Source: Octopus vulgaris | Taxonomy: Eukaryota | DNA length: 64,000 bases | Assembly: GCA_951406725.2 (NCBI GenBank) | Contig: OX597821.1 | Location: 17,298,001 to 17,362,000 of the forward strand | Direction: 5' to 3' | Shown here: in pieces, positions 44,757 to 50,100 of the stretch | How positions within the stretch are numbered: the stretch's first letter is position 1 | Layout of the letters: every line of letters starts with the position of its first letter | Made by a program: the position numbers and the translations under genes | Notes under the pieces: model-generated | Seen by the model: only the letters and a program-made list of their open reading frames with translations | The model's database searches: none | What the model was told of the DNA's origin: nothing

Positions 44757-46395
44757 CCACACTACCACACACAACAATATCAATTATGCATATTCTAAAA
44801 TATTCAAGATTTAGGGTTCGTGGTTGAACCTCAAACTTAATTTTCTTTGTATATGGATCTGCAGAAGTTGCAAGAATGGACTTTTGTTATTATGACTTAA
44901 ATTCCTCCAACAACTGGAGATTGTGGCTGGACTTTTAGGTTGAGAGTATCATTGACTATTTGGTGTTTTTATTACGAATTCAAGTTATTTATTTAAATAT
45001 CAAATTTAAAATGTATTTATCGATGAAGTTGAAAATCTGTTTTTTTTTCTTTTACTTGTTTCAATCATTGGAATGCAGCCATACTAAGGGACCCACATGC
45101 AGGGCGTTTTAGTCAAATAAATTAACACCCAGTACTTTTTCATAGTCATGTACTTATGCTATGGGTTTGTTTTGCCTAAGCGCTATGTTGCGGGGTGGAG
45201 ATAAACCGGCACCTGTTGTCAAGCAGGGGCGGTAGACGAACACTAATACACACACAAACATGTGTGCGTGTGTGCCTAATATATTATATATATATATATA
45301 AGTTTATGAAAGAATGGAGTTGAACGACTTGTTAACAAATTTCCTTTATTTTCGACATAAGTTTCGATGTGAATTTGCTACCCAGGTATCGGTTATCTTT
45401 CGAATTATCCTTAATAAGATAATTCATTCAACTACTCATATATATATATATATATATATATATATATATATATATATATATATATATATATATATATCTG
45501 TAGCCATGATAGATCGGTAGCCACTACACACATTTTTTTCTCTCCATGTTTCTCTCCTTGCTTCTTTCTGTGCTCCTTTTGTGGAAGAGCGTAGGCTCGA
45601 GCTTTTTTCAATTCCCGAGCGTTATACTAATACATCTGTTTGTTTTCAACACCACCTGTCTTTGTCTTTTGTTTTTTCGTGAATTCTTCTCGTATTATAT
45701 ATATATGTGTATATAATGTTGTATATATACACACGTACGCACGCACACACACACACACACACACACACACACACACACACATATATATATATATATATGA
45801 TATAAATAATATACATGTCAATATGTGTGTGTGCGTGTATGTATGTATGTGCACATGTATATACATAGCGGTTCGGCAAAAGAGACCGATAGAATAAGTA
45901 CTGGGCTTACAAAGAATAAGTCCCGGGGTCGATTTGCTCGACTAAAGGCGGTGCTCCAGCATGGCTGCAGTCAAATGGCTGAAACAAGTAAAAGAGTAAA
46001 GAGTAAAAGAGTATATATATATATATATATATATATATATATATATATATAGAGAGAGAGAGAGAGAGAGAGAGAGAGATGATATATATATATATATATA
46101 TATATATATATATTTCAACAATTGAGGGTAAAATTAATTAATTAATCAATTTTACCAAGTATTCAGTATACAAGGGGACCATTTAAGGCGAATTCAAATT
46201 ATTACATTATATAAAAGGGCTTAGTAAAATAAATTACTTTGCCGCATACTGAACTCATTAGAAATAGCAGCTAAAAAAACTTTTTTAAAACTATCTCCAA
46301 TACTTAAAGAAAATCTCTCTCGTATAGTGTTTGCTCAATTCAACTCACGAAAGTATGAGGGTAGAGACATTAAAAAATCAAATGCAAAGGTTATT

Positions 46396-46448
46396 TGAGA
46401 ACGTACGTTTCAAGATTAGTCAAAATCGACACTTCTATCATCAGCTCA
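46396..46448 (-). ncRNA. Minimal type I hammerhead ribozyme motif
   Basis: Reverse complement of 47061-47113. Confidence 0.75.
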
Positions 46449-47060
46449 GAACTCCCTGGTTTGGATTTGAAAACACTGAAAGCGGGAGCATACCCTTTCG
46501 GCCTGTTATCGCTTCTGAAGATCTGTTCAAAACTAACAGTGTTAGCAAATTCAAATATGCAAACGAAGAATTTCTGCTCTCCCCTTTCCACCAGCGTGGG
46601 TTAAAATCAGCAAACATTTTTTCGGTAAAATCCGAGGCATTATATAGAGAGAGATGAATTATAATTTCAACAATTGAGGGTAAAATTAATTAATTAATCA
46701 ATTTCACGGTATGCGGCAAAGTAATTTATTTTACTAAGCCCTTTTATATAATGTAATAATTTGAATTCGCCTTAAATGGTCCCCTTGTATACTGAATACT
46801 TGGTGAAATTGATTAATTAATTAATTTTACCCTCAATTGTTGAAATTATAATTCATCTCTCTCTATATAATGCCTCGGATTTTACCGAAAAAATGTTTGC
46901 TGATTTTAACCCACGCTGGTGGAAAGGGAGAGCAGAAATTCTTCGTTTGCATATTTGAATTTGCTAACACTGTTAGTTTTGAACAGATCTTCAGAAGCGA
47001 TAACAGGCCGAAAGGGTATGCTCCCGCTTTCAGTGTTTTCAAATCCAAACCAGGGAGTTC

Positions 47061-47113
47061 TGAGCTGATGATAGAAGTGTCGATTTTGACTAATCTTGAA
47101 ACGTACGTTCTCA
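47061..47113 (+). ncRNA. Minimal type I hammerhead ribozyme motif
   Basis: TGAG-CTGATGA-T-AGA.GTGTC(gatttt)GAC..TCT-T-GAAA-CGTACG-TT-CTCA. Palindromic stem III ACGTACGT; U-U mismatch at the base of stem II. Confidence 0.75.
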
Positions 47114-50100
47114 AATAACCTTTGCATTTGATTTTTTAATGTCTCTACCCTCATACTTTCGTGAGTTGAATTGAGCAAACACTATACGAGAGAGATTTTC
47201 TTTAAGTATTGGAGATAGTTTTAAAAAAGTTTTTTTAGCTGCTATTTCTAATGAGTTCAGTATGCGGCAAAGTAATTTATTTTACTAAGCCCTTTTTATA
47301 TAATATATATATATATATATATATATATATATATATATATATATATAGATGACTGGCTTCTTTCAGTTTCTGTCAAACAAGTACACTCACAGGGCTTTGG
47401 TTAGTTCGAGCTAAGTGTAGAGGTCACTTGTCTAAGGAACTGAACCCGAAACAATGTGATAGGAAAGTAAACCTCTCACCTTACAGTCTTGTTCAACTAT
47501 TCAATATTCAAAATTTCCAACTCTAACGGTAACTAGCAAAATGTATAAACACTTTCTTTGCCTGGTAATTATGGTGATATACCTAAACTGCTACTTAGTT
47601 TGACACAGCTATCTAGCTTTTGGGTAACTGGTAGAAACTATTTAGGAATATTCGAAGCAATCTTCAGTTTGAGAATAACCCTTGAATTACGATTTATTCA
47701 TCGTTTACCTTCTCCCATTCTTTGGGGTCTTGGAATATAAGAATATAGATTTTATCCTTCCCCTACAGACAGAAAATAGCCAAAACGTTACAATGTCTTT
47801 ATCTTATCAGCATCAAAACTTGTAAATTCTCTATAGATAGCAAGAGTAGAGTTTTAAAAGAAATGAGTCTACAGCTTCCATTTTCTTAGTGTAGGACTCG
47901 TTGTTATAAGAAAGATAAGAAAAGTAATCAAAATCCAATGATATTTCATATAATCAATATACACTAACTGGTAGTCAATTTATGTTCAACGAAATAGCAT
48001 AAAAAATAACGAATAAAATTATATCGAGAGACAAAAATATCCCTCCATTTGATGTTTTTCAAAAAGCAATATTAAGAAGGTCAAAGATGTAAACTCCGTT
48101 TTAAAACGATAAGTATTAAATCATTAAACCAGCTATATATTTAAACTGTTTAATCACGGAAAAAGTATCCACGATAAAGAAACGATTTTGCGAATACAAA
48201 GAGTTCAAAGAATGGTACAAATTTTATCCAAGTGAGACACGAGTAAAAGGAAGGGAAAACAAAATAAAGAACAAAAAAACGCAAAAAATTTTACAAAGTC
48301 AATGTAATTGTTTGTGGAGGGAAGAAAAAGAAGAATTAACGATCAGATAAATCTTCTTTATCAAAATAGATGTAAAGGGGAAATGAACCAAATATGTTAT
48401 AGAGAAAAATCACATTGTTGGATCAGATATAATAGTAAAACAGATATGAGATGAGTGGAGTGAAGAAGTTGTTTTTCAGCAGAAAAAAAGAGGGCGTACA
48501 CTAAGGGATATAAATGTCACGATCATGGGATTCAGACACGTAATTTTCTCGGTCACCATCACATATTCTTAGAAATTTATAAACCTATCTTTACCACAAT
48601 GCGTTCTTGCAACCTGTATTACCTTCTTTAAGTACTGCCTCAACCATAACCGTACCTTTGTGGTTTCCGTCAGTTTCAAACGCGCCAGCTACTTTGCTTC
48701 TTTCATTGAGCCTAATGGTGCTCGTTATTCCCAAATATACAGGCTCGTCATCATTTAATTCACTTGTTCACATCTCCCTGCATTGAACTACGATATTTAC
48801 TACTCCCGGCTCCTTTTCTCTACCTACTTATTGCCCACTCCATAGCATATCTATTTCAATAATTCACCTATTGCCTATCGCGCTTTATACGCATCAGTTT
48901 AACCAAATCTTGTTCCACTTCGCCCTGTACACGAAAACCCATCAACTCCACCAATTCACAAAGCTAATTTTCGCTGCCCCTAATATCCATAGACCTATCA
49001 CACCTCTATACATATCTGTGACTATTCTTTAACTTTTCACTCTCCAACGCAGAGCATTTTATCCTTAATATATGTCCCCCCTTTCAAACCCTTCCGCACA
49101 CCACCTCTCTCTGTGAGCGAATTCCAGAACTAAACTGACACTAACCGGTTCCTTGGTGGCCAGTGCATATGCTTCCTAAAAGGTGAAGCCTTAACTCTGA
49201 TTTCGCTATAAATTGCTTTATTCCCATATCTCTTAAATAAGTCATGGGAAAACAGAGGCCCACCGGACTTTCTGAATAGCACGCCTAACGAAAATTTATC
49301 TTGAATTTCTCTTAGTAATGCGGCCCGCTTGATAATGAACCTCGTCTCATTTGGCCTATTTATTTCCCATAACCAGACCCTTAAAGTTAACAGCTAAAGT
49401 CACCCATCATCTTCCCATGTAACCATGTAACGATCCCACCGAACTAACATTCAGATAACTCAACCAGCTACTTTCGTTTCTGGTAGAGGTTCTCCTATTG
49501 CACAGCCATAGCACAGATCATAGCCTCTGTCTCTTTAACTCCTATTTTTTCGACCCAATCAAACTGTTTTGTGAGATTTTATTTTTATTTTTGGCACCTA
49601 AATTCACAAAATGGTTGACTACAAATCTGTTTGAATTAATAACGACGATAACACGCAATGGCTGACATATTTTTTGCAACGATATTTACTCATGTAGCGT
49701 CTGTATACGTATACCTGCGTATGTATGCATACGTATGCATGTGTTTGTGTATGAGCGTTCGTGCGTCTGACTGAGAGAGGGGAGAGAGAGACAAGGAGGG
49801 GGGGGAGAAATAGTAAAACGATATATCAGCAACCGAATGTAGAAAGAACAAAGAATGAGTGAATGAAGTTCTTCTATGAAAAAAAAAGAGTGTAAAAGGG
49901 GGGTAAAGAAACAACACTCTCGAACATGTCTCCTGAAAATCTTGCTGTCCAATATTACTCAATGTAACAATCTCGTAATCTGGGGAATTTCAAATACATT
50001 TTTAAAAATCTTTTTGCCCAAAGGAAACAACAAAAATAATTATACCAGCAACACTGACTAATATCACTGCCACTACGATAGCGGCAACAATAAACAAACT

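What the first reader, a model, noticed from the sequence alone, without database searches (positions are those of the whole stretch)
46113..47303. 552-bp ribozyme monomer captured as more-than-unit-length, circularly permuted copies in a 1.2-kb palindrome
Seen: the left arm is one monomer plus a 43-bp restart at 46665. The right arm is the inverted monomer beginning at a different register (period 551; one indel between arms). Arms are almost identical, so the event is recent, and there is no credible ORF. Greater-than-unit, permuted copies are expected from reverse transcription of a circular or concatemeric RNA, and inverted 5' ends are typical of Penelope-like integration. Inference: an active retrozyme-like element. 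If transcribed, the palindrome would also be a long dsRNA and a potential ADAR substrate.
Basis: partly seen in the sequence, partly recalled or inferred. Interest (0 to 1): 0.7.

Follow-up and report, generated by a model that had tools for sequence, protein, structure and literature searches.

The report
Retrozyme palindrome with paired Penelope ends
This mirror-image repeat is one of roughly a thousand or more copies of a small non-coding repeat with a predicted self-cutting RNA; its two arms almost always stop at two different fixed points, which likely means a Penelope-type jumping-gene enzyme starts copying the RNA from both cut DNA ends at once.

Summary
The palindrome is real: two 595-bp arms of a 552-bp unit, back to back in (TA)n, each with a minimal type I hammerhead motif. 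It is one insertion of a young, dispersed, non-coding family (mostly 558-bp units, arrays up to about 11 units), i.e. a non-LTR retrozyme. 66 of 68 two-armed loci pair A with B; none pairs A with A. This is the known Penelope footprint (inverted truncated copy, tail at one end), with an unusually long tail set in a covarying RNA fold shared by sister families. Sixteen of 65 loci, including this one, cannot come from fold-back copying, so two primings on RNA are likely. A circular template, transcription, cleavage and editing are not shown; no autonomous partner was found. This copy has one ribozyme per strand and is likely a dead end. The scan noted the same footprint before on other repeats of this genome. 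Verdict: new member of a known kind, useful as a mechanistic test set.

The parts
46113..46707 (-). Arm ending at site B (RNA sense on the - strand): starts at unit position 245, runs one unit plus 43 nt, ends at unit position 287/288 in (TA)n. Unit positions count from the predicted hammerhead cut in the 558-nt reference unit.
46709..47303 (+). Arm ending at site A: starts at unit position 151, runs one unit plus about 43 nt, ends at unit position about 193 in (TA)n
46708..46708 (.). Single base at the 5'-to-5' junction that continues neither arm (likely added during end joining)
47061..47113 (+). Minimal type I hammerhead motif: 4-bp stem I, CUGAUGA core at 47065, weak stem II, palindromic stem III, predicted cut after 47109
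   Evidence: cleavage not tested
46396..46448 (-). Second copy of the hammerhead motif, core starting at 46444, predicted cut between 46400 and 46399
46114..46258 (-). Conserved 3' module (unit about 146-288): closing helix, two inner hairpins with site A in the unpaired linker, then a long hairpin followed by site B
46709..46844 (+). Internal copy of the 3' module in the right arm (its first bases are cut off by the junction)
46012..46112 (.). Left (TA)n/(GA)n microsatellite target
47304..47347 (.). Right (TA)n microsatellite target; any target-site duplication is hidden in the repeat

Best explanation
This is one insertion of a non-coding hammerhead repeat family (a non-LTR retrozyme) whose two back-to-back arms end at two different fixed sites, likely because a Penelope-like RT/endonuclease cuts both strands of a (TA)n tract and primes one cDNA from each end on the element's RNA. 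Shown: dispersed young family, (TA)n targets, head-to-head geometry, fixed 3' ends A and B, A+B pairing, scattered 5' ends joined by microhomology or short inserts, and a covarying RNA fold around A and B. Inferred: the enzyme is a Penelope-like protein supplied in trans; it binds the 3' module and hands site A to one DNA end and site B to the other; both cDNAs run on an uncut multimer (or circle) past the hammerhead, stop at variable points and are joined 5' to 5' by host repair; when one priming fails a one-armed copy results. The hammerhead would release unit-length RNAs from tandem source arrays, acting as a dimer.
For: Family: 1,518 candidate places, 40 scored, 97-98% identical, tandem arrays; 522 forward-strand A-type ends and 841 B-type ends for one of two junction variants. 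Tally of 88 elements: 68 two-armed, of which 66 A+B, 1 B+B, 1 B plus a non-TA end, 0 A+A; 20 one-armed (6 A, 14 B). Loci picked by their A end: 23 of 23 two-armed have B opposite; picked by B: 13 of 14 have A; picked only by the hammerhead along the first 71.7 Mb of contig C1: 27 of 27 resolved two-armed loci are A+B out of 39 loci (9 one-armed, 3 unresolved) (binomial P 1e-7, 9e-4, 7e-9; these samples overlap). A is modal at unit position 193 (34 of 71), B at 287/288 (72 of 85). Junctions: 38 of 65 with 1-8 nt overlap, 6 blunt, 17 with inserts, 4 larger overlaps. 16 of 65 loci, this one included, hold sequence in one arm that the other lacks or have lengths no fold-back copy can give; in 6 the B arm stops at or near site A, the textbook twin-priming product. 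Same source for both arms: nearest neighbours of each other in 35 of 43 loci (30 strictly); the 6-nt deletion that makes this unit 552 bp occurs 4 times in the genome, twice here. Both arms stop at the same template point (length difference 95 +/- 25) in 14 of 65 loci against 2.8 by permutation; arm lengths correlate (rho 0.75, 35 end-picked loci). 3' module: 33 pairs, 95.7% paired, 8 pairs with two-sided changes over 12 sequences from 5 families; most conserved part of the unit, 0.991 against 0.938. Autonomous RT + GIY-YIG families with intact 775-781-aa frames are in this genome, sit in (TA)n and show two alternative 3' ends 33-37 nt apart, with tail/no-tail pairing in 2 of 2 inverted loci seen. 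In vitro a Penelope protein cuts and extends both strands and starts at two internal RNA sites (PMC11167929, main text read).
Against: No autonomous element carrying this unit or its module was found in 82 fetched GIY-YIG/RT loci (partly overlapping); all hits were separate insertions in their own TA tracts, so the enzyme is assigned by footprint only. One B+B locus exists (L175). The tail is about 95 nt, against 30-40 nt in print. Most loci repeat the same RNA stretch in both arms, which on one template needs strand displacement or two RNAs. Arm similarity could partly reflect gene conversion inside palindromes. Both end sites are AT-rich and resemble the target, so annealing may help fix them, unlike the non-homologous priming seen in vitro. 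Covariation counts rest on 12 related sequences that I picked and trimmed. No expression or cleavage data.
Confidence: 0.8

Rival explanations
1. Rolling-circle reverse transcription of a monomeric circular RNA gives the greater-than-unit arms; with only one A and one B on a circle the A+B rule follows automatically.
For: About half of the arms run through the predicted cut site; arrays of up to about 11 units; no tandem source of the 552-bp variant in this assembly although three loci carry it; circular forms are shown for coral, mussel and axolotl retrozymes (PMC7229834, passages and Discussion read).
Against: Variants private to an array but shared by some of its units in 5 of 9 arrays with three or more units do not fit one pass round one circle; the excess of loci where both arms stop at the same point suggests templates with an end; outer ends are not permuted. 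This rival changes only the template form and is compatible with twin priming.
Confidence: 0.35
2. Self-priming or fold-back: one cDNA is made and then copied back on itself, giving the inverted arm (the reading offered for Penelope palindromes in PMC3846280).
For: 7 of 65 loci have both arms starting within 3 nt of the same unit position against 1.06 expected; the two arms of a locus are nearly identical.
Against: 16 of 65 loci, this one included, cannot be made by copying either arm from the other; arms with non-overlapping sequence exist (L120, L121, L141). It could still explain a minority with perfect centres.
Confidence: 0.1
3. The unit is just the pseudo-LTR of a protein-coding Penelope element, and these are short 5'-truncated insertions of it.
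For: Fixed ends and the one-sided tail are Penelope traits; animal retrozymes resemble pLTRs (10.64898/2026.07.22.740005, main text read). Only 150 of 6,136 GIY-YIG candidates were scored.
Against: Arms extend unit into unit, up to about 11 times, never into coding sequence, in the 88 tallied elements and 15 further stretches; no RT or GIY-YIG frame adjoins any copy as part of the same insertion.
Confidence: 0.1
4. Assembly or sequencing fold-back chimera, or a DNA foldback transposon.
For: No listed contig from four public runs bridged this exact centre (the list is cut and the samples may lack the insertion).
Against: The two ends differ by rule (A versus B), which neither a chimera nor a terminal-inverted-repeat transposon gives; the arms differ at three places and the flanks are unique; an independent run holds many other inversion-type joints of this family at low depth.
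Confidence: 0.03

Closest known systems
Metazoan non-LTR retrozymes (Cervera and de la Pena 2020, PMC7229834, passages and Discussion read; Li, Clavereau and Pollet 2026, 10.64898/2026.07.22.740005, parts 1-3 of 5 read)
   Same: Non-coding, low-GC tandem repeats with one type I hammerhead per unit, dispersed as monomers to multimers; weak palindromic stem III suited to dimer cleavage, as in axolotl; Penelope elements proposed as helpers.
   Different: Unit of 545-560 nt is longer than the 150-450 bp usual in the 2020 paper, though inside the 51-972 bp range of the 2026 one. The 2020 text has 0 occurrences of 'inverted', 'microsatellite' or 'target site', so the head-to-head A+B insertion footprint is not described there. 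Circles and cleavage are shown there, not here.
Endonuclease-positive Penelope-like elements: inverted 5'-truncated copy and one-sided tail (PMC3846280 and PMC8557442, passages read); Neptune, Naiad and Hydra clades prefer (TA)n
   Same: Head-to-head geometry, partial tandems, tail at one end only, palindromic centres, microsatellite targets, hammerhead upstream of the ends.
   Different: No ORF; tail about 95 nt instead of 30-40; the one-sidedness is here counted (66 of 68) and tied to a covarying RNA module; self-priming, proposed in PMC3846280, fails for 16 of 65 loci.
Poseidon PAc of Anolis in vitro (Frangieh et al. 2024, PMC11167929, abstract and main text read)
   Same: Both strands cut and extended, AT-rich targets, two internal RT start sites that define the tail, predicted dimer, hammerhead cleavage not needed for insertion.
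   Different: There the start sites lie in an AC-rich stem-loop not homologous to the target and no difference between strands was seen; pairing of the two sites within one insertion was not reported in the text I read. Here the sites are AU-rich and about 95 nt apart.
LINE-1 twin priming (recalled, not read)
   Same: Second primer starts internally and yields an inverted arm joined by microhomology.
   Different: In L1 the internal site is variable and the arms barely overlap; here it is fixed and the arms often repeat the same sequence.

Membership tests
Metazoan non-LTR retrozyme | Tandem repeat with a type I hammerhead in each unit | tested here: met
   81 full units from the loci held all keep CTGA(T/A)GA; units were picked by the GAAAC-GTAC-GT half, so only the first half is an independent test. 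Rfam gave no match.
Metazoan non-LTR retrozyme | No protein-coding capacity, no LTR structure | tested here: met
   Longest frame 109 aa, no Pfam match for 3 frames tested; arms are pure unit multimers.
Metazoan non-LTR retrozyme | Dispersed monomer-to-multimer copies | tested here: met
Metazoan non-LTR retrozyme | At least two consecutive hammerheads in this locus (the 'active' criterion of the 2026 preprint) | tested here: not met
   One hammerhead per strand in this copy; met by other loci of the family.
Metazoan non-LTR retrozyme | Self-cleavage and accumulation of linear and circular unit RNAs | not testable with these tools
   Needs bench work; no listed holder is on record as RNA.
Penelope-like element insertion footprint | Inverted 5'-truncated copy at the 5' end | tested here: met
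   68 of 88 elements (samples biased towards long or TA-flanked copies).
Penelope-like element insertion footprint | Tail at one end only | tested here: met
   66 of 68 A+B; length about 95 nt, outside the published 30-40 nt.
Penelope-like element insertion footprint | Target-site duplication | tested here: inconclusive
   Hidden in (TA)n at both ends.
Autonomous Penelope-like element | ORF with RT and GIY-YIG endonuclease | tested here: not met
   None in or adjoining the arms.
Non-autonomous derivative of a named Penelope family | End sequence shared with an autonomous partner | tested here: inconclusive
   No match to three autonomous families by blastn or covariance model; other families were not sampled. 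The one supplement held for PMC8557442 is metadata and gave no motif match; its sequence files were not seen.
Foldback / TIR DNA transposon | Same terminal sequence at both ends | tested here: not met
   Ends differ in 66 of 68 loci.

The most novel reading that the evidence does not exclude
A Penelope-type RT dimer grips one RNA by a 150-nt structured module and is forced to start its two cDNAs at two different sites; on a circular retrozyme RNA the two enzymes then roll round the same circle by strand displacement, writing both arms of the palindrome at once. The module is a portable trans-mobilisation signal shared by at least five otherwise unrelated ribozyme repeats.
Probability: 0.3. Interest if true: 0.72.

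Novelty: new member of a known kind. Interest (0 to 1): 0.45.

Why it matters
How Penelope-like elements make their inverted copies and one-sided tails is still open, and the enzyme that copies animal retrozymes is only suspected. This family supplies about a thousand short, young insertions in which the two ends are almost never the same, plus a defined RNA fold around both start sites. That turns the question into a direct test: give the existing in vitro Penelope system a two-site RNA and read both strands of single products. The locus itself shows no sign of host function.

Tried and rejected
Rfam scan of the window: 0 matches. Idea that sites A and B pair with each other (z -3.2): rejected, an artefact of where the fragment began; the alignment fold puts A in an unpaired linker. 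Idea that the equal arm lengths here (595 and 595) are a rule: rejected, 4 of 65 within 25 nt against 3.2 expected. Pile-up of 5' ends at the hammerhead cut: weak, 3 of 65 A arms and 0 of 65 B arms within 3 nt. First end-caller mis-called B ends on an internal AT run; corrected, where five rows were dropped before counting (three side hits, one segmental duplicate, one locus with withheld ends). An apparent A+A locus (L236) is B+A interrupted by a 186-bp insertion. Partner search: three autonomous families, no shared end; the genome-wide covariance search returned no answer. Sequencing runs: no RNA holder listed; contigs cover the unit in 4 of 4 runs but cannot show expression, editing or circles; no listed contig bridges this centre, which proves nothing. 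Literature searches: 3 papers hold both 'Penelope-like' and 'twin priming', none on this topic by title and abstract start; no listed paper describes an octopus retrozyme. Subscription papers and bioRxiv supplements were not searchable.
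Full report
Observation. The window holds, between two (TA)n tracts, a left arm (46113-46707) of one 552-bp unit plus a 43-bp restart and a right arm (46709-47303) that is the inverted unit in another register. The arms differ by two single-base indels and one substitution, and one unmatched base lies between them. A hammerhead motif (CUGAUGA core, weak stem II, GAAA, palindromic stem III, 4-bp stem I) lies on the + strand of the right arm and the - strand of the left arm. 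Rfam found nothing; two copies of the motif co-fold through stem III, the dimeric arrangement reported for axolotl retrozymes (PMC7229834, passages). No frame exceeds 109 aa and three tested have no Pfam match. The ribozyme strand folds better than shuffles (z -4.5) and better than its complement. In RNA sense the arms point outward: 5' ends meet in the centre, 3' ends lie in the microsatellites.

Family. A search of the own genome (2.8 Gb) gave 1,518 candidates; the 40 scored are 96-98% identical and include tandem arrays of up to about 11 units. Junction patterns give 522 forward-strand ends of one type and 841 of the other, for one of two variants; the hammerhead pattern has 2,314 matches against 4 in the control. 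Most full units are 557-560 nt, older subfamilies about 545. The 552-nt variant occurs 4 times, twice in this locus, never in tandem. Earlier scan notes call the genome an octopus; I did not verify this.

Ends. Counting unit positions from the predicted cut, outer 3' ends fall at A (mode 193, range 164-207) or B (mode 287/288). Of 88 elements, 68 are two-armed: 66 A+B, one B+B, one B with a non-TA end, none A+A; 20 are one-armed, their 5' end also joined to TA. The first 39 loci were biased to long B-register copies, so I added loci picked in order along contig C1 by their A end (23 of 23 two-armed had B opposite), by their B end (13 of 14 had A) and by the hammerhead alone (39 loci: 27 A+B, 9 one-armed, 3 unresolved; one of the 27 is a sister family and one is interrupted by another repeat). 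These samples share loci and are not independent. Inner breakpoints scatter over the whole unit, mostly with 1-8 nt overlap or a short insert.

How the two arms relate. Arms of one locus are each other's nearest sequence in 35 of 43 loci with enough overlap, across subfamilies 2-14% apart, so both come from one source, although conversion inside palindromes could add to this. Arm lengths correlate, and both arms stop at the same template point in 14 of 65 loci against 2.8 by permutation. Yet 16 of 65 loci cannot be made by copying one arm from the other; this locus is one (each arm holds about 95 nt outside the span a fold-back would allow), and in six loci the B arm stops at or near A. Two primings on RNA, one per DNA end, explain all of this. 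Whether the RNA is a circle or a linear multimer is open: about half the arms cross the cut site, but 5 of 9 long arrays have private variants shared by some units, which one pass round a circle would not give.

The 3' module. Sister families found in the window and nearby loci (2,058 and 1,095 candidates) have different bodies, about 560-600-bp periods where seen, the same geometry and a related 150-nt end region (not tallied). Twelve sequences from five families give a four-helix fold, predicted the same by RNAalifold: 95.7% of cells paired, 8 pairs with two-sided changes, 0-1 of 500 shuffles as high on four measures, but 500 of 500 on 'further pair types'. The sequences are related and hand-picked, so this is support, not proof. 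A lies in the unpaired linker inside the closing helix, B just after the last hairpin. This region is the most conserved part of the unit. I infer it is the protein's binding and start signal.

The enzyme. The genome has at least three RT + GIY-YIG families with intact 775-781-aa frames, one with dozens of copies identical over the query. They sit in (TA)n, and two show alternative 3' ends 33-37 nt apart; in one family 15 ends carry the tail and 11 do not, and both inverted loci seen pair tail with no tail. None shares this unit's end. The partner is therefore unknown, and assignment to Penelope rests on the footprint.

Comparison. The element meets the sequence definition of a non-LTR retrozyme (PMC7229834; 10.64898/2026.07.22.740005). 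[quoted passage not shown] What I did not find in four searches is the strict pairing counted, the 95-nt tail with a covarying module, or the exclusion of self-priming. The scan itself has reached a similar reading for other repeats of this genome; those notes are unchecked, were seen after my tally, and are not support.

This copy. With one hammerhead per strand it cannot release a unit by itself and is likely a dead-end product of an active family. If transcribed through it would form a 595-bp duplex, but no transcription or editing is shown.

Verdict. Real, ordinary in kind, mechanistically informative: new member of a known kind, interest 0.45.

Noticed in passing
window 12190-12565: Second copy of the same family, short, A+B, with a perfect palindromic centre and no hammerhead.
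   Followed up: yes
window 57240-57430: Short A+B palindrome of a sister family that shares only the 3' module.
   Followed up: partly
window 27022-39443: 12.4-kb satellite, 318 copies of a 39-bp unit, 94% matches, GC skew about +0.39.
   Followed up: no
window 5800-8880: Two long frames (276 and 673 aa) that look like the endonuclease and RT of a LINE (likeness recalled, not tested).
   Followed up: no
window 44339-44477 and 45863-46000: Inverted pair of a short interspersed repeat flanking the left side of the finding; I recall it as an octopus SINE.
   Followed up: no
L151 1744-6990: Young Penelope-like family with a 781-aa RT + GIY-YIG frame, an upstream 479-aa frame, a 504-bp direct terminal repeat and a hammerhead-like motif with a swapped U3-A8 core pair.
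   Followed up: partly
L156 3321-6483; L249-L273: Penelope-like family with 75 copies scoring identically over 573 aa, a CCGAAGA hammerhead core variant and a 33-nt one-sided tail.
   Followed up: partly
L275-L298: Third family (775-aa frames) with a long low-complexity 3' region and two ends 37 nt apart; no hammerhead seen by eye.
   Followed up: partly
L188 1000-2199: Sister retrozyme family with a period of about 600 bp, a CUGAGGA core and the same two-ended geometry.
   Followed up: partly
L175 4037-6029: The only B+B palindrome seen, in an older subfamily.
   Followed up: yes
L147 592-2806: Complex insertion with an extra internal inversion between an A end and a B end.
   Followed up: no
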